Below are positions 164-62,294 of a stretch of 62,294 bases of DNA, piece by piece. A model generated the notes under the pieces. It searched no databases, had not been told where the DNA came from, and was given only the letters and a program-made list of their open reading frames with translations. Position numbers and translations under genes: made by a program. This DNA is from a virus (Duplodnaviria > Caudoviricetes): IMG/VR virus record IMGVR_UViG_3300028608_000014, positions 1-62,294 of that record; one strand, written 5' to 3'. Numbering within the stretch: the first letter of the stretch is position 1; each line of letters opens with the position of its first letter.

Positions 164-204
164 CAAAAACACCCCCCGGCGGATATGCCAGGGGGTGTTT
201 TTTG
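164..204 (-). terminator. Intrinsic terminator (probably bidirectional) ending the left-arm operon
   Basis: AAAAACACCCCC...GGGGGTGTTTTTT hairpin downstream of the last leftward gene. Confidence 0.75.
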
Positions 205-222
205 CGGTGCCCGTTGTGTGCC

Positions 223-507: not shown

Positions 508-511
508 GGCT

Positions 512-1320: not shown

Positions 1321-1685
1321 TGTTCCGGGCCTTCCGTCGTAAGCGCTGCAGCGGGCTTAACCCAATATTGGAATTTCCAGCCGCTGAAATAACTGTTCAC
1401 TTCCATCCGGGGGCCGTCACGCTTGACCCCGTGCGGCTTGATTAGAGCATCTACCCACTTCCGCAACACGTCGGCGGGCGGGCAGGACCACCAACGTAAG
1501 CCGGGTATCTCTTGCACATGCACATAGACGCGGCTAGATCCCGGCGTGTAGCTAATCCAAGTTTCAGTGTCGGGCAGGTACCCCGGGCCGGAGCTGGCCC
1601 GGATATGCCTAGCGGTCACCGGGGCGGGGGCTTCAGCGGGCACGGCGGGCACTGCAGCGGCCCCGGGCGTATAGTCCCGGCTCAC
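1317..1685 (-). CDS. hypothetical early protein
   Basis: GTG start, CGGAAGGC RBS, overlaps neighbours. Confidence 0.75.
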   Translation of the reverse strand: MSRDYTPGAAAVPAVPAEAPAPVTARHIRASSGPGYLPDTETWISYTPGSSRVYVHVQEIPGLRWWSCPPADVLRKWVDALIKPHGVKRDGPRMEVNSYFSGWKFQYWVKPAAALTTEGPEQ

Positions 1686-2281
1686 CGTTCCGGGCCTTCC
1701 GGCTTAGGTGCTGCAGCGGGGCGTATCTGTGAATAGTGGCCCGTGACATCAGTAAACGAGTAGTGAGCCGCGCCGCCGTCCAGGGCGGCTAGCGCGGCGT
1801 CAAGCCCGGCCACGTCACCGGGCGGGAAATAGCGGGCTAAGTCATGCCGGGCCAGGCCGGCCGCTACAGCCGCCGGGGGCTTAGCGCCGTGCGGCTCAAA
1901 CGTCCACACCTCATACCGGGCCGGGCCAGGGGCCTGCAGGCCTTCCGCTACTTTCATCCATTCCGGCCATGCGGCCATAAGATCCCGCGCGCCCTGCAGT
2001 GTGCCCCCGTCCCGGATAGTCTCACATATCAATTCCGCGCCGGGTGAGAGATAGTGATTAGCACCATTCCAGCGGACATAGGCACTCCCGGCACTCCCGG
2101 CATTCCCGTAGTTCACCACATAGACGCGTCGCCACTTCGGCGCGGGGCCACGGGTGCGCACCATGTAGCACGTTGGAATTTTCGGGCCGTAGCCCTTAAT
2201 CGCCTGCCCCGATAGGGGGGTGTCTGTAATTTTTGCGGCCGTAACGTCGCCGGCCTGCAGGTGCTTTAGATCTTCAGTCAT
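1682..2281 (-). CDS. hypothetical early protein (GYGxKIPT...WRRVY motif)
   Basis: Start set at MTEDL after ACGGAAGGCTAGG RBS. Confidence 0.75.
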   Translation of the reverse strand: MTEDLKHLQAGDVTAAKITDTPLSGQAIKGYGPKIPTCYMVRTRGPAPKWRRVYVVNYGNAGSAGSAYVRWNGANHYLSPGAELICETIRDGGTLQGARDLMAAWPEWMKVAEGLQAPGPARYEVWTFEPHGAKPPAAVAAGLARHDLARYFPPGDVAGLDAALAALDGGAAHYSFTDVTGHYSQIRPAAAPKPEGPER

Positions 2282-2285
2282 TGTC

Positions 2286-2681
2286 CTAGCCTTCCGTGGT
2301 GTCGTCGTCGTCGTCGTCGCCGTATGCCAGCGCCTCAAATTCTTCCGGCGTCAAAAATTTGTCCAGGCGCTCACTAACGCGCCTGCAGGCCTCAAATGTG
2401 CGATACGCGGCCCGGCTATCCGTGTCATAGCCGTATTCCCCCGCCCATTCCTCGAATGAACGCGCGTTGCGGTAGCCGTTGGCGTCATCGATCAAACACT
2501 CCAGTACTTCGGCGGCCGTAGGGGGCGTATTGGGCAGGCCTATGCCCTTATAAAACGGCACGGTGTAACTGTTGCCCCGTGCATTTTTCAGCGTGACTTT
2601 CCACCCGTTGTTAGGTGATCCCCATTCCGTATTTTCCGGGCCAGGTTTGGCCGTGGCGCTGAAGCCGTCCCATTTACTCAC
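2286..2681 (-). CDS. hypothetical early protein with acidic C-terminus
   Basis: GTG after CGGAAGGCTAG RBS; FEEWAGEYGYDTDSR motif, poly-Asp tail. Confidence 0.75.
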   Translation of the reverse strand: MSKWDGFSATAKPGPENTEWGSPNNGWKVTLKNARGNSYTVPFYKGIGLPNTPPTAAEVLECLIDDANGYRNARSFEEWAGEYGYDTDSRAAYRTFEACRRVSERLDKFLTPEEFEALAYGDDDDDDTTEG

Positions 2682-2685
2682 GGCG

Positions 2686-3105
2686 CTAGCCTTCCGGGTC
2701 TTCGGGGCGGGTAAATTCCGCGCGGTATGCATTGATAAACGGCAGGGCATACATTCGAGTACCCGCGCGCTTGAATCCTGCAGCGGCCAGGTAGGAATAT
2801 GCGCCCGCGTAGGGCTCACCGTCTTTAGTCCAGTCGCGGGGGGCCGTGACGCCTTCCCATAATTCGAGTTGTGCCACGGCGCGGCCTGCAGCTTCGGCGG
2901 CGGCTATCCGTTTTTCTTCGGTATCGAACCTGTTTTCGGGGGTGCTTAGCCGCCATTCCAACCATGCCAGCGCGGCGGCTAGCTTGACCCGTTCCCGCCC
3001 GTCTTCCGGCCATGCAACGGCGGCGCTCACTAAGGGCAAAATTTCATCCGGGGTCACGGTGACGCTGAAACTAGGCGCACCCCCGGCCCATTGCGGCCCC
3101 GTCAT
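2686..3105 (-). CDS. hypothetical early protein
   Basis: 139-aa ORF, operon packing. Confidence 0.7.
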   Translation of the reverse strand: MTGPQWAGGAPSFSVTVTPDEILPLVSAAVAWPEDGRERVKLAAALAWLEWRLSTPENRFDTEEKRIAAAEAAGRAVAQLELWEGVTAPRDWTKDGEPYAGAYSYLAAAGFKRAGTRMYALPFINAYRAEFTRPEDPEG

Positions 3106-3722
3106 GACTTCAGCGCGCCCATGCTTGCCAGGAACATTTCGGCGTCAAGCAATGACGGGTGAGCGCCTATCTCATGCCATGCAATGCCGCCGCCGGGCTC
3201 ACCGTCAAAACGGTAAACGGTGCTATCCGCAATGATGTAGCCCTCATTAGCGGGGGTGTAGGGCGCGCGGTAGGCACCCCGGATAATGTGGAATGACTCT
3301 AGCCCGCCGCGCCATTTGGTCACGGCGTTACTGCCGTAATTGGGCACCACGGGCGCGGCCTGCCCCCGTTTGGCCACAAAACGGACGGTCACGTTAGGCG
3401 CGCTGCAGGCCTTCCGTAGTGCCTCAATTGCGCCCGGCACGGTCCCGTCATAGTCAACCAGGACGGCCGAACCATAATCACGGCTAGGCTTAATCGGAAC
3501 GTCCAAACTAGGATCTTCCCATTTATGCGTGGGCACTTGCACGGTTGCATAGGGGCCGTCGTCCTGCAGCGAGACATAGACAAAACCAATTTTGAACGGC
3601 GGGCGCGTTTCCATCAGTGCCCATAGGGTAAAGCCCGCGACTAGGGCGGCCTCAAGAATGGGCACGATAACGGCGTCTACTATCCCGGCTAGCGGGTGTG
3701 TTGCGGGTGTTGCTTCAGTCAT
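3102..3722 (-). CDS. hypothetical early protein with an N-terminal hydrophobic segment
   Basis: Start MTEAT after ACACGGAAGGC RBS, directly downstream of a promoter. Confidence 0.75.
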   Translation of the reverse strand: MTEATPATHPLAGIVDAVIVPILEAALVAGFTLWALMETRPPFKIGFVYVSLQDDGPYATVQVPTHKWEDPSLDVPIKPSRDYGSAVLVDYDGTVPGAIEALRKACSAPNVTVRFVAKRGQAAPVVPNYGSNAVTKWRGGLESFHIIRGAYRAPYTPANEGYIIADSTVYRFDGEPGGGIAWHEIGAHPSLLDAEMFLASMGALKS

Positions 3723-3770
3723 GGCCCTGGGCCTTCCGTGTTGTGTGTTGGTGAGCGGGTGCATGCAACC

Positions 3771-3800
3771 ATTACAGCACCCTACGTGCGTAGGGTGCAA
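3771..3800 (-). promoter_or_regulatory. SigA-like promoter TTGCAC-N18-TGTAAT with CACCCTAC-N4-GTAGGGTG operator
   Basis: Motif repeated at 5672, 62133 and four rightward promoters. Confidence 0.75.
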
Positions 3801-3925
3801 GCCCTACAGCAAAAACGGGATACTGAAAACCAGGATCACTAGGAAAGTGGAGACTATGTGACTTAGCCGGGGTAGTATCCCCCCGTTACTGTCCGTGTGG
3901 TCACTCAAAAATGAGTGGTGCCGGC

Positions 3926-4267
3926 TCACGGTTCACCGGCACAATCGGCCCTAACCGTTGCTTGCACGTCGGGGGGAAGACTGGACCATTTAGCGGACTC
4001 ACGATAGGCCCGGCGGCGGTAGCCGGCCAGGTCATAGGCCGTTATCTCACTGGAGACCCCAAACCCCTGGGCGCTTGACGGGTGCTCACTCATGCCCCGA
4101 TACCAAAGCCAGGTATCGGCGTAAGTGGTGCCGGTGACGCGCTCACGATAGACGACGGTGTACCTATCCCACGTTTTACCGCCGTTGTCATAGATGGCCA
4201 GGACTCCCGGGGGGCAGTCGCCGTCCAGGAATTTTTTCGACTGACGGCGCGGGCTGTAGGCAGTCAT
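3926..4267 (-). CDS. hypothetical early protein (YDNGGKTWDRYTVV motif)
   Basis: 113-aa ORF overlapping the upstream stop. Confidence 0.75.
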   Translation of the reverse strand: MTAYSPRRQSKKFLDGDCPPGVLAIYDNGGKTWDRYTVVYRERVTGTTYADTWLWYRGMSEHPSSAQGFGVSSEITAYDLAGYRRRAYRESAKWSSLPPDVQATVRADCAGEP

Positions 4268-4491
4268 GCCGCTAGCCCTAGAGTGAGCAACGATTCTTGA
4301 CGCGAGCCCGCGCCGGCCGGGTGCATGTTGTTTATGTGCGCCTCACCCGTGAGCCATTCCCCTAGCGGCCCCCGGCGGTGAATCCACCACACATTAGCCT
4401 TAGGGTGCCGGTCCAGGACTTCCCATGTATCGGGGCTACCGTCCACCGTGACCGCCGCGCCGTGTTTGATGTCTTTTGCTTGCATTGCCAT
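4264..4491 (-). CDS. hypothetical early protein (MAMQAKDIK...)
   Basis: ACACGGAAGGC RBS. Confidence 0.7.
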   Translation of the reverse strand: MAMQAKDIKHGAAVTVDGSPDTWEVLDRHPKANVWWIHRRGPLGEWLTGEAHINNMHPAGAGSRQESLLTLGLAA

Positions 4492-4495
4492 GGCC

Positions 4496-4843
4496 CTAGG
4501 CCGCCTTCCGTGTGGTGTTTGAGTCCTGCCATTCCTGCAGTGTCTGCAGCACGGGCGCACACTTGACGCGCCGTTTACCGGGGCCGGGGATAGTCCGGGC
4601 CGATAGTTGTTTGAGTAGGGATTCAACGTTGATAGCCCCCCGGGAGACACCCCGGGCCGTTTTCCTATCCGGCGTAGTGTCCCCGTCCAGGGTGAGGAAA
4701 CACCTGAATGTTGTTCCGGGAATAGTCACTACATGAGTAGTGCCGGGGCCAGGCGCGAGCGGTTCAACGCGGCGGCCTAGGGGGTTAGGCGGGGCAGAAA
4801 ATGAGGAATAGCCGGGGCCGTAGTTGCGGGCTTTATACGACAT
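4496..4843 (-). CDS. hypothetical early protein
   Basis: CCGGAAGG RBS, 115 aa. Confidence 0.65.
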   Translation of the reverse strand: MSYKARNYGPGYSSFSAPPNPLGRRVEPLAPGPGTTHVVTIPGTTFRCFLTLDGDTTPDRKTARGVSRGAINVESLLKQLSARTIPGPGKRRVKCAPVLQTLQEWQDSNTTRKAA

Positions 4844-4862
4844 TTTGTGATCCTTCCGGGGG

Positions 4863-5069
4863 TTAGAAATTGAGTGAGCCTAGAGTCATGAGGGCGGCGG
4901 CCCCGCCTATTGCGGCGGCCCACTGCAGGGCGGGGCTAAGACGGCGGGCGGCGCGGTCCAGGTCACGGGATACCCGCGCGGCCGGCGCGCTAGTCCAGTA
5001 GTCACGGCGGGCGGCCCGGCGCGCTGCAGGGGACACCCGGCGGCGGCTCACACGGTGCCGGCGGCTCAC
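4863..5069 (-). CDS. small Arg-rich protein with a C-terminal hydrophobic segment
   Basis: GTGA overlap with the upstream gene. Confidence 0.55.
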   Translation of the reverse strand: MSRRHRVSRRRVSPAARRAARRDYWTSAPAARVSRDLDRAARRLSPALQWAAAIGGAAALMTLGSLNF

Positions 5070-5596
5070 GGGGTCACCTGCAGGCACTTAGTGATGGCCT
5101 CATCTTGCACGGCGGTAATCATGGCCCGCGCGGGGTAATAGTCCAGGGCCGTACTCATGACTTGTTGTTCCGTGTCCAGGGGCCGGGCGGGCGACTCCCA
5201 ATAATCCCCGGCGTCTATGCCGCCTAGTATTTCCTCAATACTGAATCGGCCTAGAGTCGCCGTGACCGTCACGCCGTAATAGTGCCAATCATCATTTTTC
5301 CAGGCGGCCAGGTCTTCCGGGTCATAGCATTCCAAGTCTTCCGGTGACCCGTCATAGTCGCGCCATATCTCATAGGTGAGAGTCACCCCGGCGTTAGTAT
5401 CCTGCAGCGTGTAAACGGCGTGCACGCGCTCACTGAAGATCAATTCAGCGGTGAAGCCCTGCAGCGCCTGCAGCACGGCCGCTACGTAACGCGCCGCTAT
5501 TAGGGCGTATTGGGCCGTGCGGCCTAGGGCGCGGTTAGCGCGGTAGATAGACGCCGGGCTAGTCCGGCGGGTGTCGGTCATATCAAAAGTGAGCAT
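5066..5596 (-). CDS. hypothetical early protein (MLTFDM...)
   Basis: ACACGGAAGGC RBS; first gene after the 5.69 kb promoter. Confidence 0.75.
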   Translation of the reverse strand: MLTFDMTDTRRTSPASIYRANRALGRTAQYALIAARYVAAVLQALQGFTAELIFSERVHAVYTLQDTNAGVTLTYEIWRDYDGSPEDLECYDPEDLAAWKNDDWHYYGVTVTATLGRFSIEEILGGIDAGDYWESPARPLDTEQQVMSTALDYYPARAMITAVQDEAITKCLQVTP

Positions 5597-5662
5597 TTTT
5601 CTAAGCCTTCCGTGTGGTGAGCGGTCCAGGCTGCAGGGGTGTAGAGCTGCAGGCCGTCCCCC

Positions 5663-5692
5663 CATGATGCGCCCTAGTTATGTAGGGTGCAA
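5663..5692 (-). promoter_or_regulatory. Promoter with TTGCAC -35 and CCCTAC-N4-CTAGGG operator
   Basis: Shares GGGCTTGCACCCTA with the 3771 and 62126 promoters. Confidence 0.7.
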
Positions 5693-6055
5693 GCCCCCAA
5701 AAAATACAGCTCTATATGCACGGCGGGGCAATTGTTCCAGGGTAAACCTGGCGGCAGGATGTAGGACGTCCTATGTCAGTAGGCCTGGCCGGGTGAGAAG
5801 CGTTCTCAACAGCAGGCCCGGCCGGCCAGGTCCGAGAGCCCGACTCTCACTTACCGAAGTTCATGATTTTGCATGGGAAAGAACCCTAAAGAACCCAAAA
5901 CCCGGGGAAACCCGGGGAAAACTGCGGAAATCTTGATCCAATCTTGAGAAACAGGTAGTAGGGCATTGATAAACCTGAGTACCTATGGAACTCTCTAGGT
6001 ACTGGCCCTGTAAGTACAGGCCTACACACCATCTCGCAACAGGAGCACACCCCAC

Positions 6056-6421
6056 ATGGTCTTGATTAACGACGGCGCGCACTTGTCAGTCATCGAGGGG
6101 ATGAAGGACAAGGGCGAGTGCGCCGGAGGCTGCAACCACGACGCACGGTCAGGCCCCAAAGAACCCCTGTCCCCGCAAAACCCGGCAGGCACCGGCCGTT
6201 TTGATGAGGCCCTGAAGCAGCTGCAGATCGCCAAGCTGGCGCACGAGCACCGCAAACTCCGCACCGAGGCGGAGAACACGCTACGGGATCTGGACTTCAA
6301 ACTGACCCTGGAAAAGCTGACCTATGAGGCCTCGCTGGACGGTGTGCCCGTCCGGCACATCACCGCCTCCCATGACCAGGCATTCGAGGCCCTGGAGGCC
6401 GCGCAGCAAAGGATTGCCTGA
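6056..6421 (+). CDS. hypothetical protein
   Basis: ACAGGAGCAC RBS, 121 aa. Confidence 0.7.
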   Translation: MVLINDGAHLSVIEGMKDKGECAGGCNHDARSGPKEPLSPQNPAGTGRFDEALKQLQIAKLAHEHRKLRTEAENTLRDLDFKLTLEKLTYEASLDGVPVRHITASHDQAFEALEAAQQRIA

Positions 6422-6422
6422 G

Positions 6423-6671
6423 ATGACCGCCCTGCCTCCGGTCGGGGACGCGCCGGACATCCTGCTCCGGCTCAACCGGGCACACGAGGCCATGCACGAT
6501 GAGATCAACGCGCACCAGAGCGCCTGCAACGCGGCCCTGGCGGATCTCTGGAAGAAGCATGCGCCGTTCATCACCGAGGCCAAGAGCGTGTTTCTGCAGG
6601 TCCAGGCGGAGGCCTACCGCGCAGGCTTCACCGACGATGAGATCAACACGGCGCTGCCCGAGTGTGACTGA
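6423..6671 (+). CDS. hypothetical protein (MTALPP...)
   Basis: ATG immediately after the upstream stop; core-type codon usage. Confidence 0.7.
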   Translation: MTALPPVGDAPDILLRLNRAHEAMHDEINAHQSACNAALADLWKKHAPFITEAKSVFLQVQAEAYRAGFTDDEINTALPECD

Positions 6672-25566: not shown

Positions 25567-26062
25567 CGGGACCGTCCTCCATGTAGTGATAAAGGGCCGC
25601 GCGGTTCTTGTCGGCCATCCGGATCATGACCATGCGGGCACGGACGGCCAGGCAAATCACCACCGCGAACATCACGGCCACGGCCCGCTGCTGGCCCGTG
25701 ATAATCCACAGCCCAGCCATGAGGGAAGCGAACACCGCCGGACCTGCGAACAGCAGCCACAGGCCGAACATCTCGACGCGGAACCCCCTGCGCCGGTTCT
25801 GCGCGCCCATGATGAGGCCGGTAAGGCTGATCCAGAACCCAAGAATCGTGACGGCACACCAAAGCACCAGGAAAAAGACGGTGGTGTTGTCCCGGACGGA
25901 CGGAAGCTGCACCAGAGGGACCATGAGCAGAATCCCGAGGGATGCCTTGAACTGGATGAACGCCCTATCGACGGGACTCAGCGCCGAAAGTGCCCGGTGC
26001 ACGCCTCTCAGGGCTCCCCGGACCCGGCTATCCGAAGCATTACTGCCATCAGGAATCGCCAT
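25556..26062 (-). CDS. four-TM membrane protein (holin-like / lysis accessory)
   Basis: Four hydrophobic segments. Confidence 0.75.
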   Translation of the reverse strand: MAIPDGSNASDSRVRGALRGVHRALSALSPVDRAFIQFKASLGILLMVPLVQLPSVRDNTTVFFLVLWCAVTILGFWISLTGLIMGAQNRRRGFRVEMFGLWLLFAGPAVFASLMAGLWIITGQQRAVAVMFAVVICLAVRARMVMIRMADKNRAALYHYMEDGPDEA

Positions 26063-26117
26063 TTATTATTTCCCCCTTGCAGCAGACTTCACTAAACACA
26101 AGTCTACAGGGGTGGGG

Positions 26118-26681
26118 TTAGGCGGTGGCGTACATCAGGGTCACCCGGAGGTTGGCTCCCCGCATGTGCACAGTGTCCGAGCGCCCGGCACCAACCCGGA
26201 GCCGCCCGTAGATGGTGTCCCCGACATCAAGCATCTGCGCCGAGGTAATGGTGGCGTTGGAGAAGGCCTCGGGGTCCGACACAAAGGGCTGGGACACATC
26301 GGCCACGTTCCCGAGCCAGAGCGACAGGTCGATGGGCACGGTGTCCCCGAAGTCCGCCGTCGCGGTCAGCACGATCAGGTAAAGGCCCGGCCGCTTGACC
26401 TTCACCACGCCGCCCGCGAGGTCCATGTTGGTGACGTAGTTCCGGTAGCCGGTCCTCTGGACCGGCAGGATGATGCCCGTATCCGCGATGGTGCCCGCCC
26501 CGGTGATGCTGAACGACCCGCCCAGGGTGGAGGCGGACACGCCTGCGCGGGCCTCCTGCCGGGCCATGCGCACGCCGAGGCCCTGGCTGATGGACTCGGC
26601 CATCATGGGGGACCAGACATCGGCTTCGAGGGTGTCATCCTCATCCGGTGTCCAGATGCCGTCTGCGTTTACGTTTCCCAT
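26118..26681 (-). CDS. minor tail protein (C1q/TNF-like C-terminus)
   Basis: VKRPGLYLI...LDVGDTI pattern; end of the tail module. Confidence 0.65.
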   Translation of the reverse strand: MGNVNADGIWTPDEDDTLEADVWSPMMAESISQGLGVRMARQEARAGVSASTLGGSFSITGAGTIADTGIILPVQRTGYRNYVTNMDLAGGVVKVKRPGLYLIVLTATADFGDTVPIDLSLWLGNVADVSQPFVSDPEAFSNATITSAQMLDVGDTIYGRLRVGAGRSDTVHMRGANLRVTLMYATA

Positions 26682-26690
26682 GGGAGCGTC

Positions 26691-27953
26691 CTATTCTGCT
26701 GCGGTAATGTTGATGTCAGCCGAGGGGTAGACCCCGGATTCCCCCAGCGCTGAGATGGAATTGAACTCGCTGACAAAGGCGTCCGCCGGGATGGTGAGCC
26801 GGGCATCGAAGGTGCCGTCCGACTCGGCGTTGATGGTGTTCAGCATGTCCCCGCCGACGTACAGGTCCACGGTCTCGCCGGGGGTAAAGCTCTGGCCGAT
26901 GACCTGCACCACGGAGCCGATGGGCGCGGTGGAGGGCACCTGAATCCTGCGGTTCTGGACGGCCGTGGAGGTGGAGGCGTCCGGCTCTCCGGTCCAGGAG
27001 TAGCTGTAGTCGGGGTCGTCAGGGGTTGCGCCGTTCCAGCTCCCCAGCGTCCAGTTCATCATGTCCCCGGACACCAGCAGGTCATCGACGTAAATGGTGG
27101 CCGAGCCGAGCGAGGGCAGCGTGACGCCAAGCGCCAGTGCGGTGTCCAGCTGCGGGCCGTAAAAGCCGTCGTCGCCGCCCGAGCCTGTGACCTGCAGCTG
27201 CTGCCACACACCCGGCTCCAGGTACACCCGGTCCTGGTAGTTGGTCTGCCGGTAGCCGTCGTAAACAAAGTCAAAGTAGGCATCGACGGCGATGCCCGTG
27301 TCATAGGTCATCACCCAGACGCGGTACGTGTGGGCCGTTAGGAGGTTGCCGAACGACATGATGGTGACGCCGGACTCGGGGATGATGGTGACACCGTTGT
27401 AGTAATCGACCCTCATGCAGCTGCCGCCCCCGCGCCCGCCCGAGGACAGGCTGGCGACGGCGGTGGACGGGACGTTGTTCCGGGAGTCATCCCACGCCCA
27501 GTTGCCGGTGCTGTTCTCGAAGCGCGGGTCGGTGATGACGTTGGTGTACGTCCGGAACCAGCCCCAGGTGTCTGCCGGGAGGAAGCCAGCCTCCGGATCG
27601 GGCACGTAGTAGGAGGCCGGATCGCCCAGCGGGAACTCCTTGGGCAGCTGCACGGTGTCATGGGCGCGGGCCACCCATTTGCCGCGCTTGCCGTCGAACG
27701 TGAGCAGATCCCCGTCCTGCGCGTCCCGGATGTCCAGATCCTGCAGGGAGGGCAGCTTCAGCTGCACCGGGTTGTCCACCGACGGCGTAGCGCCCGTGTA
27801 AAGCCCGCGTCCGGGGTTGGCGATGTCCAGGCCGAAGTCGCTGCAGATCCGGCGCGCCATTTCCTGCAGCTGCGCCAGGGTCTCCAGCGCCTTGCTGACC
27901 TCGCGCGCCCAGTCGTTTGCGCCTCCGGGCAGGCCCATGTTGTTCTGGCCCAT
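26691..27953 (-). CDS. minor tail / receptor-binding protein with a carbohydrate-binding-like domain
   Basis: NVITDPRFEN...W...YVDD jelly-roll pattern; tail synteny. Confidence 0.7.
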   Translation of the reverse strand: MGQNNMGLPGGANDWAREVSKALETLAQLQEMARRICSDFGLDIANPGRGLYTGATPSVDNPVQLKLPSLQDLDIRDAQDGDLLTFDGKRGKWVARAHDTVQLPKEFPLGDPASYYVPDPEAGFLPADTWGWFRTYTNVITDPRFENSTGNWAWDDSRNNVPSTAVASLSSGGRGGGSCMRVDYYNGVTIIPESGVTIMSFGNLLTAHTYRVWVMTYDTGIAVDAYFDFVYDGYRQTNYQDRVYLEPGVWQQLQVTGSGGDDGFYGPQLDTALALGVTLPSLGSATIYVDDLLVSGDMMNWTLGSWNGATPDDPDYSYSWTGEPDASTSTAVQNRRIQVPSTAPIGSVVQVIGQSFTPGETVDLYVGGDMLNTINAESDGTFDARLTIPADAFVSEFNSISALGESGVYPSADINITAAE

Positions 27954-50304: not shown

Positions 50305-50852
50305 GCTCCCTGCTCCTCGGGGTGCGCCGAGAGGGCCTTCTGCGCCTCGGCAAGGAAGGTGGTGTCGAAGTTGTCCAGTACCTCGCCCCGGATGGCCTTC
50401 AGGGTCTTGCCCTTGTCAAAGGCGATCTCCAGCTGCTGCTTGAAGTTGCCCTGCAGCGTCATCATGGCGTTCAGAATGATCTGTGTCTGGGCCTTGGTCA
50501 GTTCCACCAGGGCGTCCTGGGCCTCGGTCTTACGGGCCTTGTTCAGCGCCTGCAGGGCCTCGATCCGGTCGAAAATCTTCAGGAACAGTTCCAGATCCTC
50601 GGCCGTGGCGGCGGAATTGGCCCGCTGGTGTGCCATCACGAGGAGCTTTTCGAGCCGGATCAGGTGCAATACCCACTGTTCCTCGGGGCTCATCACCGCG
50701 CGGGACTCGATGTATTCTTTCCACGCCCGCACAGCCTCATCGACGGAAATGTCCTGCTCGGTCGCAATTTCCTCGAAGGTATAACCCTCGCTGCGGCGGT
50801 CCACCACAATCGTGGTGAGCATATCCACGGTGTTTTCGATGTTTTCCGCCAT
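50301..50852 (-). CDS. terminase small subunit (HTH)
   Basis: RRSEGYTFEEIA HTH; upstream of terL; leaderless -10 TAAGCT. Confidence 0.7.
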   Translation of the reverse strand: MAENIENTVDMLTTIVVDRRSEGYTFEEIATEQDISVDEAVRAWKEYIESRAVMSPEEQWVLHLIRLEKLLVMAHQRANSAATAEDLELFLKIFDRIEALQALNKARKTEAQDALVELTKAQTQIILNAMMTLQGNFKQQLEIAFDKGKTLKAIRGEVLDNFDTTFLAEAQKALSAHPEEQGA

Positions 50853-50914
50853 GGAACCAGCTTATTACAAATGCACATCTGCAATTCATAAATACAGAGG
50901 CATCAATTACAAAG

Positions 50915-50948
50915 CAAAAGGCTCCGGCCCTTATGAGGGCCGGAGCCT
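50915..50948 (-). terminator. Intrinsic terminator
   Basis: AGGCTCCGGCCC/GGGCCGGAGCCT followed by TTTG. Confidence 0.75.
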
Positions 50949-50985
50949 GCGCCCGGATGGCATGGGGGTTACCGGACGCAGGGGC

Positions 50986-51060
50986 TCAGATGCGCCGGAC
51001 CAGCAGAACAATCAGCACGATGATGGCAACAACGACGAGTATGTACATCAGGTTGTCCAT
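50986..51060 (-). CDS. 24-aa hydrophobic peptide MDNLMYILVVVAIIVLIVLLVRRI
   Basis: -10 TAAACT 6 nt upstream (leaderless); own terminator; not in the supplied ORF track. Confidence 0.6.
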   Translation of the reverse strand: MDNLMYILVVVAIIVLIVLLVRRI

Positions 51061-51139
51061 GGATTCAGTTTACAGGACTCGATACAGAACCCCGCCGCGC
51101 CGATAAGCACCCTTATGACAAGCTGGCGGCCCGGAAAGC

Positions 51140-51760
51140 GCCGCTGACCTGCAGCAACACGCCCGTTAAAGCAGCAAAGCCCGGACCTTGGCGGAGTCCG
51201 GGCTACTGTGTTGCTTACCAATAAAAATTGAATAACTAGAGTCTATCGTAAGGTCTTGGCGGACAACACGATAGGTCCAGGGCGGCGTGTCGGAAAAACG
51301 CCGGGCAGTCCCTGCGGGAACCACGGGCAACCGTGGCGGACGTGTCCCAGCGGCTAACCCACCGCGTGTAGCGAGAGGCCCAATTGAAGGCCAGAGGGGT
51401 TTCCTAGAGCAGTCCCCTGCGCGTAAAGGCAGACCAGGAGCGACGAGGGCGCAGCGGTGCGCCTTGCCGGGGAGGCGGTGTGCCCCGGAGGCGACTGCTC
51501 ATACCCCGGTCCTGCGCTCCGAGTAATCCCCGAAGCGACGGCGAAAAATTTTTTCGTCGGCCCCCTGCAGGGGGGCTACTCTGTCGTGAATACCTCACCT
51601 CCACGACAGGGGCTCCCGCCCCAGGCCCTGGCGGGCCTCCCCCGGCAGCCGCACCGCGCAAGCGCGGCCCGGCACGTAGGTCTTGTCCCACCTAACGCTG
51701 GACTACTAAGGGTGGAGACTTTCAAAAGGTGACCCACCTTAAGTGACGCGCGCGCGAAAA
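51140..51760 (+). other. Putative Rep-independent (RNA-controlled) prophage replication origin
   Basis: Non-coding, adjacent to parAB; two TTGGCG-loop hairpins; T-tract plus G-tract. Confidence 0.4.
51172..51235 (-). ncRNA. Candidate Inc/Cop-like antisense RNA (CGCCAA loop)
   Basis: -10 TAGACT at 51240-51245; AU-rich tail; 9-bp stem with CCGCCAAG loop followed by UUU. Confidence 0.45.
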
Positions 51761-51767
51761 ACCGTGC

Positions 51768-51956
51768 TCATTCTTCCGAATCGAGCACGAAGAACAGCCC
51801 ATCAGCAACCGCTTCCTCGACCCAGAATCTGGTCCTGGGTGTTGTCCGTTGCCGGGCGATTTCCTCCAGCCGGGCCCTGTCATTGCCGACGGAGTACACC
51901 ATCCGTCCGGTGCCGTCCGTCCGCTCCGCCATCAGCAGGTACCTGTACTCAGCCAT
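51768..51956 (-). CDS. hypothetical protein, last gene of the par operon
   Basis: GGAGGG RBS; overlaps the partner gene. Confidence 0.7.
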   Translation of the reverse strand: MAEYRYLLMAERTDGTGRMVYSVGNDRARLEEIARQRTTPRTRFWVEEAVADGLFFVLDSEE

Positions 51957-52239
51957 CTGTCCCTCCGAGCAAATGGCCGTATTTTTCCTCCAGCAGCGGC
52001 CACAGCTCGCGCTCCACGAACTTCTGCTGGCTGATCTCCTGCAGGTCCGCCGCGGCCTTCAGCAGCTCCAGCTGGGACTTGCTCAGCCGCAGGTTGAAGC
52101 CGTGGGACTTCGGCTCGCGGTTCCGCTGCTTCCACTTGGGCTCATCGGCCTTGGTGGGCCGCTCCGGCTTCTCGGCCGCGTCCCCGAAGGCCTCGATCTC
52201 CTTCTCCATCTCGGGGGTCGGCTCCCTCATCTTCACCAT
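51949..52239 (-). CDS. ribbon-helix-helix centromere-binding protein (type Ib ParB/ParG-like)
   Basis: Disordered N-terminus; FNLRLS...LLKAAA...SQQKFV RHH pattern; coupled to parA. Confidence 0.75.
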   Translation of the reverse strand: MVKMREPTPEMEKEIEAFGDAAEKPERPTKADEPKWKQRNREPKSHGFNLRLSKSQLELLKAAADLQEISQQKFVERELWPLLEEKYGHLLGGTDG

Positions 52240-52868
52240 GACAGGGCCTCCTGCAGCAGCAGCTGGATCTCGGCTTTGGCCTTGCGATCCCGCGTTTCCA
52301 CCGCTCCCTTGCCATCACCCATCGCCTTGCGGAAGACCTTGCGGTCGTGCAGGACCGTCCTGGCCAGCACCAGATCCGGGTATTTCGTCATGTAGGTGCG
52401 GGCCTCGCCCTCCTCATCGTCCCAAACGTGCGGAGATACCCGATTCAGCACGCCCATGAGCTTCAGGTCCGGGTTGAACTTCCGTGCCTCCTTGACGGTG
52501 GCCAGCAGCGACTTCGAGGTGTCCAGATCCGGCTGGGAGGGCAGCAGCGGTGCCAGCAGCAGATCGCAGGCCGTCATCGCGGTGCGCAGTTCCTTGGAGT
52601 CCTTCCCGGCGGCGTCCACCAGCACGACGTCGTGGGCCTTGTCGAGGTTTATCAGTTTGGTGTAGAGGTTGCCGCTTACCTGTTCGGTCTTGATGGGCGC
52701 TCCGCCGGCCTCCACGCGGTCGGCGGCCCAGATGCTGGTCGTGTGCACGGTCGGGTCCGCCTCCACGATGCAGACTTTTCGGCCCCGGCGCTGCAGCTCG
52801 GCGGCGAGGTTGACGGTGATGGTGCTCTTGCCGACGCCGCCCTTGTGGTGGCCGATGAGGATCAGCAC
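52233..52868 (-). CDS. parA: ParA family partition ATPase (short, type Ib)
   Basis: KGGVGKST deviant Walker A, VEADP, VLVDAAG, P..PSQPDL. Confidence 0.93.
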   Translation of the reverse strand: MLILIGHHKGGVGKSTITVNLAAELQRRGRKVCIVEADPTVHTTSIWAADRVEAGGAPIKTEQVSGNLYTKLINLDKAHDVVLVDAAGKDSKELRTAMTACDLLLAPLLPSQPDLDTSKSLLATVKEARKFNPDLKLMGVLNRVSPHVWDDEEGEARTYMTKYPDLVLARTVLHDRKVFRKAMGDGKGAVETRDRKAKAEIQLLLQEALSW

Positions 52869-53083: not shown

Positions 53084-53110
53084 TTTGCTCCCCTAGTGGT
53101 TGTGTAGTGC

Positions 53111-53340
53111 TTTGGTAGCTGTGCAGTAGCTCTATGGTACCCCTTTGGTAGCTAAAGGGTACCCATAGCGTAGTTATTTCATACCAGAACGGTAGTTGTT
53201 GCATAGCACTACCAAACTAAAACGGTAGCTCTTTGGTATTGATCTGGTAGCACGATGGTAGTTATGTGGTAGTACTCTGGTACCACTTTGATAGTTCTAC
53301 GGTAGCGATTATGGTAGTTCTACGGTAGCGGTAGGGTAGC
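53111..53340. repeat. parS-like centromere: about 20 GGTAG-core repeats at 11-bp period
   Basis: Cores (some degenerate) at 53114, 53125, 53136 ... 53301, then 53313 and 53324; AT-rich; upstream of parA. Confidence 0.8.
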
Positions 53341-53366: not shown

Positions 53367-53434
53367 AAAAAAAAAAATCCCCTCCCAGGAGCACCAGGAG
53401 GGGATTTTCGCTGCAACAGCTCTACACAGGAGCC
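53367..53434 (-). ncRNA. Candidate anti-RBS small RNA B / terminator
   Basis: 12-bp stem with UGGUGCUCCUG loop, U11 tail, 5' GCUCCUGUGUAG. Confidence 0.5.
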
Positions 53435-60123: not shown

Positions 60124-60423
60124 TTGTCCACAGGCTGTGGAAAATGATCCAGGCATTCAAGCGGACTTGAATCGTGGCCGGCGCGTTCAAGTGAAGCGGC
60201 ATTTGACTAGAAAATGTGGATAACTTTGTCGCCCTGCGGAAAAAGTGCCGCGCGGTGAAAGTTTGTCGAAGATTTGGCCAGCGCCCCCTGGCCGGCCGCG
60301 CAAAACTGATTCAGGCCTACCGTTTATTTGTTGCCTGCCATGCAACTAAGAGTCAGCTCTCATGCCGGGCTGCAGTGCATAGTGATACATATTCCTGTAT
60401 AAAAATTCCGCCGATAATCCACA
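60124..60423. promoter_or_regulatory. DnaA-box cluster
   Basis: TTGTCCACA 60124, TGTGGAAAA 60136, TGTGGATAA 60215, TAATCCACA 60415. Confidence 0.6.
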
Positions 60424-60976
60424 TTATGTCAACCTGTAAATTATCGCTGTATATATACAGCCCTGCAGGGTCAGGGGTTACAGGGCCCTGTTTACCAATA
60501 CAAACAACAGCACAAAAATTTTCCCATTTTCCAGGAAAGCCCTGTGCGCGTTTCTCCGGCCCTGTGACTGCCGTTAGCTATCACCATACCACCATGGCCC
60601 CGGCGTGCCTGCAGCGGCCCGCGTAGGGCCTGCCGCGGGCATGAGGGGGACACTACGCCCATAGGGCAGGGCAGGGGGGACACCCTACAGGCATAGGGGC
60701 CGGGGGAATGCGTTAGGCATGGGCGGATATGGTACTGCAGGGGCCGTTTTTGCAGGCCCTAGCCTAGATCCCCCTATGCCCCTGTAGATCTTTATTTTTT
60801 TCTACAGACATACATACCTAAAGGGGGTTAGGGGCAGGGGCTCGCGCATTACGGCGTGTCTGTAACGCATTCCCGTATGCCTTACACATTCCTCCGGCCT
60901 GTCTCCCCTGCCTTCCCCCTATGTTCCGCATTCCTTACACCCTACGCACATGACACCCCCTCACGAGGGGCACAAC

Positions 60977-61008
60977 AAAACACCCCCTGCAGGTGTCTGC
61001 AGGGGGTG
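60977..61008 (-). terminator. Terminator of the right-arm operon
   Basis: CACCCCCTGCAG-N4-CTGCAGGGGGTG followed by TTTTG. Confidence 0.75.
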
Positions 61009-61035
61009 CATGGGGGGTGCAATGGGGGGTGCTGT

Positions 61036-61389
61036 CTACGGGTTCAATTCCCGATATTTTGCCGCTACGGCGCGCGCCACGTCCGCTACGGGTGTCCCCG
61101 GTTCAATGTCCCATGATGGCGGGTCACTGTCCCTAGGCTCACCCTCACGGGTGAGAGTGTCGGGGCCGTAATACAGGTCTTCCGTGGTGAAACTGGACAG
61201 ATGCGGATAGGTCCAGTCATAGCTACCGGGGCCGATTAGCAACGGCTCACTACAGCCGGGGCCGTTGTCCACCATGAGGGCGGCCGTCCCCCCGCCCATT
61301 TGTTCCACCGTGGCAGTCAGGCCTTCCGCCTGCAGGGCGGTAATCAGCTCGCGCGCCTGAAACGTGCAATCCATGTCTTCAGTGTCCAT
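61036..61389 (-). CDS. hypothetical acidic early protein
   Basis: ACGGAAGGCTAGG RBS. Confidence 0.75.
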   Translation of the reverse strand: MDTEDMDCTFQARELITALQAEGLTATVEQMGGGTAALMVDNGPGCSEPLLIGPGSYDWTYPHLSSFTTEDLYYGPDTLTREGEPRDSDPPSWDIEPGTPVADVARAVAAKYRELNP

Positions 61390-61393
61390 TGTC

Positions 61394-61546
61394 CTAGCCT
61401 TCCGTAATGCGGCAGACAGTCGCCGCCTTGAGATCTTTCATGGTGTGGAGATAGTAGCGGCGACGTGCGCGAGCTTCGGCCCGACTCGTGCAATACATGC
61501 GTTCTACGGTGCCGTTATCGAACGTGAGCAAGACAAACCATTCCAT
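61394..61546 (-). CDS. small hypothetical protein (50 aa, MEWFVLL...)
   Basis: AAGGGG RBS; fills the gap; ends in TEG like other arm genes. Confidence 0.6.
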   Translation of the reverse strand: MEWFVLLTFDNGTVERMYCTSRAEARARRRYYLHTMKDLKAATVCRITEG

Positions 61547-61558
61547 GACGTTTCCCCT

Positions 61559-62083
61559 TTAGAATTCCGGGCGGCCTGCAGCTAACCACGCGCTAACGCG
61601 GTTAGATGCGGGATTGAAAATAGCGACATTGGCACTCATGCGCGCTTCGGCCTCATCTTCCGATTCATCATCAGTCGGGCCGTCATACCATTCTTCCGCC
61701 AACATGTTGGCGTCGATGTAGTCATGCAATTCCGAAAAACTGGAGACGGTAACGGGAATGATCCCTACGGCGATATAGCTCCTAATTTCCACTTGCATGG
61801 CGAACACAACGGCGTCAATAATATCGGCGGGGCGCATGGGCTTTACCCTTACCAATTCTTCGGCGTCATATTCAACCGCGCCGCGCGTGGTGTCGATAGT
61901 GGTGCACGGGCCGTGCTGCCACGTCTTGACGATGGGGGCGGGCGTCTTGCGGGTGAGCCGTTCGCCCTCAATCTGGACATCGTAAATTTTCATGCCGGGC
62001 TTCAGGTCTTCAGCGGCTACGCGCTTGCCTGTAATGGCTTGCTTGGAAAGCCCGGCGTGGGGGGTGGGATCTTTAGCGAGCAT
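61559..62083 (-). CDS. hypothetical early protein (SFSELHDYIDANM motif)
   Basis: Start MLAKD downstream of the 62126 promoter. Confidence 0.75.
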   Translation of the reverse strand: MLAKDPTPHAGLSKQAITGKRVAAEDLKPGMKIYDVQIEGERLTRKTPAPIVKTWQHGPCTTIDTTRGAVEYDAEELVRVKPMRPADIIDAVVFAMQVEIRSYIAVGIIPVTVSSFSELHDYIDANMLAEEWYDGPTDDESEDEAEARMSANVAIFNPASNRVSAWLAAGRPEF

Positions 62084-62125
62084 TTCGGGTCCTGCTTTCA
62101 GGTGTAGGGGGTGTGTATGGACACC

Positions 62126-62155
62126 ATTAGAACACCCTACTTGCATAGGGTGCAA
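62126..62155 (-). promoter_or_regulatory. Promoter TTGCAC-N18-TCTAAT with CACCCTAT-N4-GTAGGGTG operator
   Basis: Near-copy of the 3771 promoter. Confidence 0.75.
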
Positions 62156-62282
62156 GCCCGTGTGAAGAATGGTTTTTATGGCATACCGTGCCCCGCCGTG
62201 CCTACGGGCAGGCCCCGTTTTCTCCCGTGCAACACGCTGCAGCTGCCCCATGCTGCAGGGTGCCTATTGTGCTGCCCTGCCC

Positions 62283-62294
62283 CCTGCCCCCGTC
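62283..62294. repeat. 12-bp terminal direct repeat (right copy)
   Basis: Identical to 1-12. Confidence 0.85.

What the first reader, a model, noticed from the sequence alone, without database searches (positions are those of the whole stretch)
51140..51760. Rep-less, antisense-RNA-controlled replicon candidate next to parAB
Seen: about 0.7 kb with no credible ORF; two hairpins each with TTGGCG in the loop (51178-51204, 51243-51274); a possible plus-strand promoter CTGACC-N17-TAAAGC (51144-51172); a minus-strand -10 TAGACT (51240) that would give a ~60-nt counter-transcript with a CGCCAA loop; and ATTTTTT...CAGGGGGGC at 51548-51576. Established: UUGGCG/CGCCAA kissing loops control IncFII and IncI/B replicons; the ColE1 primer region ends ATTTTTGTGATGCTCGTCAGGGGGGCGG; some parABS cluster A mycobacteriophage prophages replicate from RNA-based origins without RepA. 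Inference: an RNA-primed, copy-controlled plasmid-prophage origin in a non-mycobacterial actinophage. Caveat: the G-tract is also part of a local palindrome, so the ColE1 likeness may be chance.
Basis: partly seen in the sequence, partly recalled or inferred. Interest (0 to 1): 0.8.

Follow-up and report, generated by a model that had tools for sequence, protein, structure and literature searches.

The report
Conserved structured element beside phage parAB
The gene-free stretch next to this soil phage's partition genes holds a folded non-coding element also found inside the RNA-based plasmid origins of cluster A mycobacteriophages, so it is probably how the phage copies itself as a plasmid.

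Summary
Window 50853-51767 is non-coding apart from a conserved 24-codon peptide gene. The two hairpins carry an identical 9-base loop that occurs nowhere else in the window.

The ColE1-like G-tract is one arm of a local palindrome and lies outside the conserved core.

The decisive evidence is different. Window 51154-51536 is a member of a structured non-coding family that is absent from Rfam 15. Its hallmark is a hairpin with the loop GGGRATTACTC, followed by a conserved long-range helix.
- A covariance model built from 10 metagenomic phage contigs, trained without the window, hits 51384-51541 (minus strand) at 43 bits, E 6e-13.
- The same model finds 8 of 9 cluster A mycobacteriophage "non-RepA" origin regions.
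- A model built from those origins finds the window back, at E 6e-4.
- In LadyBird and Alma the domain lies inside the published deletions that abolish stable plasmid lysogeny.

The window's phage has parA, a centromere-like array and no detected integrase. An RNA-based prophage origin is therefore the best reading, at about 0.5.

Against it: other family members sit in integrase-bearing proviruses and in about 16-kb mini-phages without parA, the transcribed strand is unresolved, and a DnaA-box cluster at 60.1 kb is a rival origin.

The parts
51154..51536 (-). Conserved core of the non-coding element, as shared with contig L330
   Evidence: blastn of the window against L330: 308 of 395 identical (78%), E 7e-77, covering window 51536 down to 51154. 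The whole of 51089-51750 is identical in a variant contig from run X3 whose flanks differ.
51384..51541 (-). Family-defining structured domain: hairpin, CAGGACCGGGG linker, and a long-range helix to GGTCTGCC
   Evidence: Model R3, built from 10 other contigs, scores 43.0 bits, E 6e-13, over the full model; the next window hit is 14.7 bits. Model R1, built from 8 cluster A origins, scores 16.9 bits, E 6e-4, at 51376-51556.
51516..51536 (-). Hairpin with loop GGGGATTACTC
   Evidence: This is the only match to GGG[AG]ATTACTC in the window on either strand. The motif is present once in each of 8 of 9 cluster A origin regions. There were 5 matches in 3.09 Mb of other loci; the printed flanks of these do not obviously pair, though no formal stem test was run. 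Its outer stem covaries across the family.
51243..51274 (.). Hairpin 2, with loop CTTGGCGGA on the plus strand (TCCGCCAAG on the minus strand)
   Evidence: The loop is kept in L330, where the stem sequence differs and 7 of 8 positions still pair (my reading of the sequences printed).
51240..51245 (-). TAGACT, a candidate -10 box for a short minus-strand RNA of about 70 nt
   Evidence: Read from the sequence. L330 has TACGCT at the aligned position. MAFFT places it under the GATAGACTC of LadyBird, which is weak evidence. No transcript data.
51179..51203 (.). Hairpin 1, with the same 9-base loop. On the minus strand it is followed by TTTGCTGCTTT, so it looks like a terminator.
   Evidence: Nearly identical in L330.
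51537..51756 (.). Variable part of the gap: an A5T6 tract (51544-51554), the palindrome CCCCCTGCAGGGGGG, a GC-rich stretch, and three TTA(A)GGTGGG-like copies
   Evidence: Not shared with L330 but identical in the X3 variant up to 51750. The TTAGGTGGG-type motif is not enriched in the window.
51757..51789 (-). Terminator-like hairpin plus GTTTTT at the end of the par operon
   Evidence: Read from the sequence. It overlaps the stop codon of the 62-codon ORF 51768-51956.
50986..51060 (-). 24-codon hydrophobic peptide gene, with TAAACT six bases before its ATG
   Evidence: The peptide is conserved in L006. The leaderless geometry is my reading of the sequence.
50919..50948 (-). Intrinsic terminator: a 13-bp stem followed by a T-run
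   Evidence: The X3 variant carries a compensatory T-A to C-G change at 50923/50944.
51949..52868 (-). parA (52233-52868) and a 96-codon gene (51949-52239) that may encode a ribbon-helix-helix centromere-binding protein
   Evidence: ParA: PHROG 164, 6.8e-39, with Pfam AAA_31, CbiA and MipZ. The 96-residue protein has only weak CopG and HicB hits, E 0.015-0.02, below the cut-offs.
53105..53340 (.). Centromere-like repeat array upstream of parA
   Evidence: 12 of the window's 56 GGTAGY matches fall in 53114-53340, many spaced 11 bp apart. None lies in the gap.

Best explanation
Window 51154-51536 is a member of a conserved, structured, non-coding element family of actinobacteriophages. Its hallmark is a hairpin whose loop reads GGGRATTACTC. 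The hairpin is followed by CAGG(A)CCGGG, which pairs at long range with CCGGG(T)CTGCC and encloses variable hairpins.

The same domain lies inside the roughly 600-bp 'non-RepA' origin regions of cluster A parABS mycobacteriophages. Wetzel et al. 2020 showed those regions to be needed and sufficient for autonomous plasmid replication.

In this phage the element sits directly after the par operon, and no integrase was found. I infer that it is the replication module of an extrachromosomal prophage, working as follows.
- A long RNA across the element, probably on the plus strand by analogy with the cluster A RNA-seq direction, starts or licenses DNA synthesis by host enzymes.
- A short minus-strand RNA runs from TAGACT to hairpin 1. 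Its loop is complementary to the two identical loops of the long RNA, and it tunes copy number.

Shown: family membership, the conserved structure, and the par context. Inferred: transcription, the strand, priming, and copy control.
For: Membership in the family:
- R3 was trained on 10 IMG/VR contigs, without the window, L330 or cluster A. It hits 51384-51541 (minus strand) at 43.0 bits, E 6e-13; the next window hit is 14.7 bits.
- R3 also finds L330 (50.8 bits) and 8 of 9 cluster A origin regions (20-26.5 bits). It finds nothing in L006, L008, L011, L015 or L017.
- The reciprocal model R1, from 8 cluster A origins, has its best window hit at 51376-51556 (minus strand): 16.9 bits, E 6e-4. That remains the top non-training hit in 0.94 Mb.

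Specificity of the motif:
- The extended pattern matched 28 stretches in IMG/VR.
- It matched 0 of 401 genomes sampled from the phylum of G001, a Microbacterium genome.

Structure:
- 10 of 39 and 11 of 42 predicted pairs show compensatory changes within cluster A.
- Over 20 family sequences, 91.8% of cells pair against 79.2% in shuffles (0 of 500 shuffles reach it). The covariation score is 0.364 against 0.163 (0 of 500). Slid controls reach at most 62.9%.

Link to function:
- The domain maps to LadyBird 26022-26190, inside the deletion 25900-26299. It maps to Alma 26601-26686, inside the deletion 26463-26959. Both deletions abolish stable lysogeny (coordinates; paper section 10).
- Removing the regions that hold LadyBird gene 34 or Alma gene 35, which overlap the domain, abolished transformation. 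Stop codons placed in those ORFs did not (paper section 11).

Context in the window:
- parA is present, with a centromere-like array.
- No tyrosine integrase, serine integrase or protelomerase was found in a record that CheckV rates 100% complete.
- HTH_3 regulators are present.
- 51089-51750 is identical (0 differences in 662 nt) in a variant contig that has 31 differences in 50694-51088.
Against: - The family is not tied to par. tblastn found no ParA in any of the 12 non-cluster A loci.
- Of 5 whole records, 0 have a ParA-type ATPase. Two are proviruses with a tyrosine integrase.
- Two members, L341 and L326, are phages of about 16 kb with terminase, tail or lysis genes.
- Et2Brutus replicates from its origin region, yet neither model nor the pattern finds the domain there.
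- The second half of the cluster A origin has no counterpart in the gap.
- The element lies downstream of par here, but upstream of par in cluster A.
- The strand is unresolved. The single wobble pair in the window's hairpin fits the minus strand, whereas cluster A RNA-seq points to the strand that corresponds to plus.
- A cluster of DnaA-box-like sites at 60124-60243, with AT-rich DNA nearby, is a classical alternative origin.
- The phage has its own primase and polymerase.
- E-values from the short model calibration are rough.
Confidence: 0.5

Rival explanations
1. The element is a structured phage RNA with a role other than prophage replication. It could, for example, be a lysogeny-expressed or early regulatory RNA, or an origin used for lytic replication. 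On this reading its position beside par in this phage and in cluster A is mosaic coincidence, and the plasmid origin lies elsewhere, for example at the DnaA-box cluster near 60.1 kb.
For: Family members occur in two integrase-bearing proviruses, in a 64-kb record with terminal repeats, and in phages of about 16 kb, all without ParA. Neighbours vary between loci: terminase, HTH_3 regulators, a WhiB-like protein, a GIY-YIG protein. Relatives of the window's structural module carry tRNA genes in the same slot, in 8 of 10 loci, so the slot accepts varied cargo. There is a DnaA-box-like cluster at 60124-60243. Et2Brutus replicates without a detectable copy of the domain.
Against: In LadyBird and Alma the segments that contain the domain are required for plasmid replication and stable lysogeny, while lytic growth of the deletion mutants is normal (paper sections 10 and 11). 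All phages need an origin, so finding the element in par-less phages does not exclude a replication role.
Confidence: 0.3
2. This is the reader's specific mechanism: a ColE1-type primer RNA processed at the A/T tract and G-tract at 51548-51576, controlled through IncFII/IncI-style UUGGCG kissing loops.
For: The two identical 9-base loops are real, unique in the window and conserved in L330. A TANNNT box followed by a hairpin and a T-run could give a short counter-transcript. The rUUGGCG loop motif of the ColIb-P9 Inc RNA exists in the literature; I saw only the title of the Asano 1998 paper, in a reference list.
Against: The G-tract is one arm of a palindrome built on a motif over-represented in the window, and it lies outside the part conserved in L330. 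No Rfam family matched, plasmid copy-control RNAs included. TTGGCG itself occurs 37 times on the plus strand. The plus-strand promoter is weak. ColE1-type replicons are, from my own knowledge, a feature of enterobacteria.
Confidence: 0.1
3. The gap is a DNA-level site: a packaging (cos or pac) site for the adjacent terminase genes, or the par centromere.
For: It lies directly upstream of the 183-residue DNA-binding protein, a 77-residue protein and TerL. It contains an A/T tract, palindromes and three TTA(A)GGTGGG-like copies.
Against: The centromere-like array lies upstream of parA, and none of its repeats is in the gap. The conserved core covaries in the manner of a folded single strand. The core also occurs away from terminase genes in other loci. 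In Amigo the same gene trio lies about 7.8 kb from the genome end. Read laying listed no place where many molecules begin or end, but all four runs were contigs, which cannot show this.
Confidence: 0.05
4. The hairpins and putative small RNA regulate the 24-codon hydrophobic peptide gene, in a type I toxin-antitoxin-like arrangement.
For: A conserved small hydrophobic ORF with its own promoter-like box and strong terminators lies about 110 nt downstream.
Against: L006 keeps the peptide gene but lacks the element. L330 keeps the element, and its homology ends before the peptide region. The two features are therefore separable modules.
Confidence: 0.05

Closest known systems
Non-RepA (RNA-based) prophage replication origins of cluster A parABS mycobacteriophages: LadyBird, Alma, Gladiator, RedRock and others (Wetzel et al. 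2020, mBio, PMC7157519). I read sections 6, 7, 8, 10, 11 and 15, plus passages found by term search.
   Same: Both are non-coding regions of about 0.4-0.7 kb next to a small parA, a small parB and a short ORF, in a temperate-looking actinophage with no integrase. They share the hairpin with the GGGRATTACTC loop and the long-range helix that follows. The domain has the same orientation relative to parA in both. A TANNNT box followed by a GC hairpin and a T-run lies downstream of the domain in both (a weak alignment).
   Different: - No blastn or nhmmer similarity was found.
- Only the first domain is shared; the second half is not.
- The element lies downstream of par here and upstream of par in cluster A.
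- The ParA is closer to that of E. coli phage D6 (45%) and of Paenarthrobacter or Arthrobacter proteins (55-58%) than to LadyBird ParA (31%).
- The centromere repeats are unrelated.
- The structural genes resemble those of Arthrobacter Amigovirus phages (49% TerL identity).
- Function is untested here.
ColE1/pMB1 RNA II / RNA I replicon
   Same: The concept only: a protein-free origin in which a long RNA primes synthesis and a short antisense RNA controls it. The Wetzel paper offers the same analogy in its introduction.
   Different: No Rfam match. The likeness of the G-tract is explained by a local palindrome. There is no evidence for RNase H processing. The host range of ColE1 replicons is from my own knowledge.
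IncI-alpha/IncB/IncFII antisense control with a UUGGCG loop
   Same: A hexanucleotide, TTGGCG, is presented in the hairpin loops.
   Different: Those systems regulate translation of a Rep protein, and no rep gene lies here. The motif is short and common in this window. For this literature I saw only a reference-list title.
Type Ib (ParF/ParG-like) partition cassettes
   Same: A small Walker-type ParA of 211 residues, a 96-residue partner with faint ribbon-helix-helix signals, and an upstream array of short repeats spaced 11 bp apart.
   Different: This describes the neighbouring genes, not the finding itself. The ribbon-helix-helix assignment is below the Pfam cut-offs. The ParF/ParG naming is from my own knowledge.

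Membership tests
GGGRATTACTC-hairpin structured element family (defined here; absent from Rfam 15) | A hairpin with an invariant GGG[AG]ATTACTC loop and a variable, pairing stem | tested here: met
   One match in the window, at 51516-51536 (minus strand), with the stem GCTTCG/CGGAGC. The stem covaries across the family.
GGGRATTACTC-hairpin structured element family (defined here; absent from Rfam 15) | CAGG(N)CCGGG directly after the hairpin, pairing at long range with CCGGG(T/C)CTGCC | tested here: met
   The window has CAGGACCGGGG paired with CTGGTCTGCC in the R3 alignment. This helix is 93.3% paired over 20 sequences.
GGGRATTACTC-hairpin structured element family (defined here; absent from Rfam 15) | A significant score against a covariance model trained without the candidate | tested here: met
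   R3: 43.0 bits, E 6e-13. R1: 16.9 bits, E 6e-4. E-values are rough because the calibration was shortened.
GGGRATTACTC-hairpin structured element family (defined here; absent from Rfam 15) | Location in a non-coding gap of about 0.5-0.7 kb in a phage genome | tested here: met
   By my subtraction of the flanking ORF coordinates, the gaps around the motif are 464-733 nt in 10 of the 12 non-cluster A loci. No filtered ORFs were called in L337, and L334 has none upstream. The window's gap is 915 nt.
Cluster A non-RepA RNA-based prophage origin (Wetzel 2020) | Nucleotide similarity to the origin regions | tested here: not met
   blastn found no match. An nhmmer profile of 9 origins gave a best E of 0.095 over 31 nt, while the leave-one-out control gave 1e-38. 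Only the structure-aware models connect the two.
Cluster A non-RepA RNA-based prophage origin (Wetzel 2020) | The parA-proximal half of the origin: a TTGGCGAG-loop hairpin, a -10-like box, and a C6/G5 hairpin with a T-run | tested here: not met
   The best window hit of R2 is E 0.11, outside the gap. Within the gap there are only 5.8-bit and 3.6-bit fragments.
Cluster A non-RepA RNA-based prophage origin (Wetzel 2020) | Adjacent to parABS in a phage lacking both an integrase and repA | tested here: met
   parA and a repeat array are present. There were 0 hits for PF00589, PF00239 and PF16684. No RepA search was run. The element lies downstream of par rather than upstream.
Cluster A non-RepA RNA-based prophage origin (Wetzel 2020) | Expresses a non-coding RNA in lysogens and supports autonomous replication | not testable with these tools
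   No RNA run holding this DNA was listed. Replication can only be tested at the bench.
ColE1-type replicon | RNA II / RNA I structures recognisable by curated models | tested here: not met
   0 Rfam matches at gathering score. None of the 7 sub-threshold matches is a plasmid RNA.

The most novel reading that the evidence does not exclude
The GGGRATTACTC-hairpin domain marks a widespread, so far undescribed class of protein-independent, RNA-based replication origins in actinobacteriophages. On this reading it is a portable module used by plasmid prophages (cluster A and this phage), by integrating phages, and by phages of about 16 kb. The invariant loop would be the docking site for a conserved host replication or RNA-processing factor.
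Probability: 0.3. Interest if true: 0.85.

Novelty: new variant of a known kind. Interest (0 to 1): 0.72.

Why it matters
RNA-based prophage origins have so far been defined only by function, and only in cluster A mycobacteriophages. The paper states that extrachromosomal actinophage prophages are found almost only in that cluster (section 15). Its main text never uses the words stem, hairpin or secondary structure.

The result here gives that origin class a recognisable structural signature. It extends the class to an unrelated, probably Micrococcaceae-infecting phage, and yields 12 further natural variants for comparison.

This makes the mechanism testable. The open questions are which host factor reads the invariant loop, which strand is the active RNA, and whether the repeated loop sets copy number. 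It could also provide small plasmid replicons for Arthrobacter-type hosts.

The presence of the element in integrase-bearing and very small phages is a useful warning that the element may do more than maintain plasmids, or something other than that.

Tried and rejected
- Rfam: 0 matches over the whole window at gathering score. The gap at E<=10 gave only chance-level hits. Eight family loci gave 0 matches.
- No tRNA or tmRNA in the window.
- blastn of the gap against phage records and of 51089-51767 against plasmid records: no match.
- Single-protein locus searches found only one close contig, which stops 9 bases before the gap.
- A metagenome scan gave one short contig, L006. A first scan of genome contigs gave nothing. 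A second, using a ParA alignment, was swamped by generic ParA hits, best 38%. The same query in viral contigs gave a best of 40%.
- Sibling phages exist that carry both a ParA and a homologue of the 183-residue protein: the two protein searches list clusters with the same longest-contig lengths (3846, 6302 and 62712 nt), which I read as the same contigs.
- The double 9-mer pattern in viral contigs returned 117 or more stretches, which by my own rough estimate is about what chance would give. None resembled the gap.
- The gap core against 401 genomes of the order of G001 gave only short GC-rich matches of 23-71 nt.
- DnaA boxes: none cluster in the gap.
- The TTAGGTGGG motif is not enriched.
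- Sequencing runs: no RNA holder was listed. The four runs laid were contigs, so they give no information on transcripts or molecule ends.
- Strand assignment from wobble pairs was inconclusive.
- Supplementary files of the Wetzel paper (Table S1, Figs S1 and S2) were not seen. They may show the exact RNA ends.
Full report
**What the window is.** The window is a complete-looking virus record of 62,294 bases: linear, with a CheckV completeness estimate of 100%. Its large terminase is 49% identical to those of Arthrobacter phages of the Amigo type. It shares with them the gene trio of a DNA-binding protein, a small protein and TerL. The nearest named ParA relatives are Paenarthrobacter and Arthrobacter proteins, at 55-58% identity. 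A Micrococcaceae host is therefore a reasonable inference, but it is not shown.

The record encodes a primase, a DNA polymerase I-like protein, a helicase, an exonuclease and a Sak4-like protein. It also encodes Cro/CI-type HTH proteins. No tyrosine integrase, serine integrase or protelomerase was detected.

**Checking the observation.** The interval between the 62-codon ORF that ends the par operon (51768-51956, minus strand) and the start of the 183-codon DNA-binding gene (50852, minus strand) is 915 nt.
- It has no codon-position GC signal.
- Its 7 ORFs match no Pfam family.
- It is the longest gap in my GC3-filtered ORF list, which passed no ORFs before 6056 or after 60131.
- The whole gap folds better than shuffled copies on both strands: z -5.5 on the minus strand and -4.3 on the plus strand, with 20 shuffles each.
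- In 150-nt windows the signal is concentrated in three places: the terminators at 50850-51050, the two hairpins at 51100-51300, and 51500-51800. The stretch 51250-51500 is unremarkable locally.

That 9-mer occurs only at these two places in the window. The bare hexamer is common.

The ColE1-like G-tract is one arm of a palindrome built on CCTGCAGG. That motif occurs 19 times in the window against 2.2 expected.

**Surroundings.** The par cassette is complete without the gap. It comprises:
- a strong terminator-like hairpin at 53367-53408;
- an array of at least 12 GGTAGY repeats, many spaced 11 bp apart, at 53105-53340;
- a 70-codon ORF;
- parA;
- a 96-codon gene with faint ribbon-helix-helix signals;
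- a 62-codon ORF;
- a terminator-like hairpin at 51757-51789.

None of the repeats occurs in the gap, so the gap need not hold the centromere.

On the other side of the gap lie a conserved 24-codon hydrophobic ORF (50986-51060, minus strand), two terminator hairpins, and a conserved palindromic promoter region in front of the 183-codon gene.

In more distant relatives of the structural module, the same slot holds one to three tRNA genes. This is so in 8 of 10 loci, and tRNA-Asn is always among them. In L006 the slot holds other, unrelated sequence. The slot therefore accepts varied cargo.

**A variant strain.** A contig from run X3 covers 50627-51750. All 31 of its differences, and both of its indels, fall in 50694-51088. 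The 662 nt from 51089 to 51750 are identical to the window. Two further contigs over the par genes differ at 10 of 182 and 4 of 330 positions. This means either strong constraint on the element or a recent exchange of a discrete module.

**The decisive lead.** The published precedent is Wetzel et al. 2020 (PMC7157519). In 105 of 110 parABS cluster A phages there is no repA. In five phages tested, a non-coding region of about 600 bp upstream of parA is sufficient for autonomous replication. That region is transcribed in the direction opposite to parA. Deleting the transcribed region from Alma and LadyBird abolishes stable lysogeny (sections 7, 10 and 11).

I fetched nine such regions. A sequence profile of them found nothing significant in the window. 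Its best hit was E 0.095 over 31 nt, against 1e-38 for the leave-one-out control.

That marginal hit nevertheless fell in the gap. Reading the alignment showed why. Eight of the nine origins contain a hairpin with an invariant GGG[AG]ATTACTC loop and a covarying stem. The window has exactly one copy of that motif, at 51516-51536 on the strand of parA, also flanked by a stem.

RNAalifold on the cluster A sequences gives a multi-helix domain. Compensatory changes occur in 10 of 39 predicted pairs on one strand and 11 of 42 on the other. A covariance model of this domain, R1, has its best window hit at 51376-51556 (minus strand): 16.9 bits, E 6e-4. That hit remains the top non-training hit in 0.94 Mb, which included 80 ParA-bearing viral loci. 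A model of the second half of the cluster A origin, R2, finds nothing in the gap.

**Widening the family.** I searched with a pattern made of the hairpin core and the conserved CAGG...CCGGG that follows it.
- It matched 28 stretches in IMG/VR.
- It matched 0 of 401 genomes sampled from the phylum of a Microbacterium genome.
- Sixteen of the 28 look like cluster A. Twelve are different.

One of the twelve, L330, is a close homologue of the window's element: 308 of 395 positions identical, E 7e-77, covering window 51536 down to 51154. This alignment defines the conserved core. It includes both hairpins with the repeated loop, a TANNNT box, and the terminator-like end. In L330 the stem of hairpin 2 has a different sequence that still pairs.

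Model R3 was built from the ten other non-cluster A contigs, without the window, L330 or cluster A.
- It hits the window at 43.0 bits, E 6e-13; the next window hit is 14.7 bits.
- It hits L330 at 50.8 bits.
- It hits 8 of 9 cluster A origins at 20-26.5 bits.
- It misses Et2Brutus and five control loci.

On the resulting 20-sequence alignment, 91.8% of cells pair against 79.2% in shuffles (0 of 500 shuffles reach it). The covariation score is 0.364 against 0.163 (0 of 500). Slid controls reach at most 62.9%. That alignment was fitted to the model, which favours the structure. The E-values come from a shortened calibration and are rough.

None of eight family loci matches any Rfam family. My two literature searches found no description of this structure. 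The main text of the Wetzel paper has 0 occurrences of 'stem', 'hairpin' or 'secondary structure'. Its supplements were not available to me.

**How it most likely works.** Family membership is well supported. Function is inferred.

The shared domain maps inside the LadyBird deletion (26022-26190 within 25900-26299) and inside the Alma deletion (26601-26686 within 26463-26959). It also maps inside the segments whose removal abolished plasmid transformation, whereas stop codons in the overlapping ORFs did not.

The phage has par genes and no detected integrase, and it must replicate somehow as a prophage. The simplest reading is that 51154-51536 is its RNA-based origin module.

The anatomy suggests two transcripts. 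One is a long RNA across the domain. The other is a short RNA of about 70 nt, running from TAGACT (51240-51245, minus strand) to hairpin 1 and its T-run. The loop of the short RNA would be complementary to both copies of the 9-mer loop in a plus-strand RNA. That would explain why the loop is duplicated.

**Evidence against, and limits.** The family is not confined to par-bearing phages.
- tblastn found no ParA in the 12 non-cluster A loci.
- 0 of 5 whole records have a ParA-type ATPase.
- Two of the five are proviruses with a tyrosine integrase. None has a serine recombinase.
- L341 and L326 are phages of about 16 kb with terminase, tail or lysis genes.
- The paper notes that Alma 35, which overlaps the domain, also occurs in integrating cluster A phages.
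- Et2Brutus replicates without a detectable copy of the domain.

The element may therefore be a general phage origin or another kind of RNA.

The window also has a second non-coding region of about 900 nt (60132-61040) with a cluster of DnaA-box-like sites and AT-rich DNA. This is a classical candidate origin.

The strand is unresolved, and no RNA data could be had.

The finding is a new variant of a known kind. It is a member of the structural family that includes the cluster A RNA-based origins, found in an unrelated phage. A family-wide structural signature also emerges that, as far as my searches reach, has not been described.

Noticed in passing
window 53105-53340 (with a terminator-like hairpin at 53367-53408): A centromere-like array upstream of parA. 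12 of the window's 56 GGTAGY matches fall in 227 bp, many spaced 11 bp apart, along with degenerate copies. Together with the small ParA and the 96-residue protein that shows faint ribbon-helix-helix signals, it resembles a ParF/ParG-type cassette.
   Followed up: partly
window 60124-60460 (non-coding region about 60132-61040): A cluster of DnaA-box-like 9-mers: one exact match and two one-mismatch matches within 100 bp, out of 11 such matches in the whole window. Two two-mismatch copies and AT-rich DNA lie nearby. This is a classical candidate origin and a rival to the gap.
   Followed up: partly
window, whole; densest in 1-6600 and 60300-62294: CTGCAG occurs 99 times against about 21 expected. 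CCTGCAGG occurs 19 times against about 2.2 expected. 31 of the CTGCAG copies lie in the first 6.6 kb. The phage carries two DNA methyltransferase genes. This could be a regulatory or a modification motif.
   Followed up: no
window 50986-51060 (minus strand); L006 575-649: A conserved 24-codon, strongly hydrophobic ORF. TAAACT lies six bases before its ATG. The 183-codon gene has TAAGCT in the same geometry, which suggests leaderless transcripts. The function is unknown: it could be a small membrane protein or a toxin-like peptide.
   Followed up: partly
loci L008, L010, L011, L012, L014, L015, L016, L017, upstream of the homologue of the 183-residue protein: Relatives of the structural module carry 1-3 tRNA genes (always Asn, plus Pro, Lys or Trp) in the slot that holds the non-coding element in the window.
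   Followed up: yes
L341 (16,114-nt record with terminal repeats) and L326 (15,601-nt record): Very small phages with terminase, tail or lysis genes carry the same structured element. Neither record has a detectable ParA or integrase. Whether they lack replication genes was not examined.
   Followed up: partly
cluster A origin regions, alignment A5 columns 56-77 (for example L138, L139): A second covarying hairpin in the cluster A origins has a loop of the type TGGCGAG. It recalls the window's TTGGCG loops but lies on the opposite strand relative to the shared domain.
   Followed up: partly
window 50853-50900 and L006 716-753: A highly conserved stretch directly upstream of the 183-codon gene: CTGTATTTATGAAT, then a TGCA...TGCA palindrome, then TTTGTAATAAGCT. 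It is probably the promoter or operator of the structural-gene operon.
   Followed up: no
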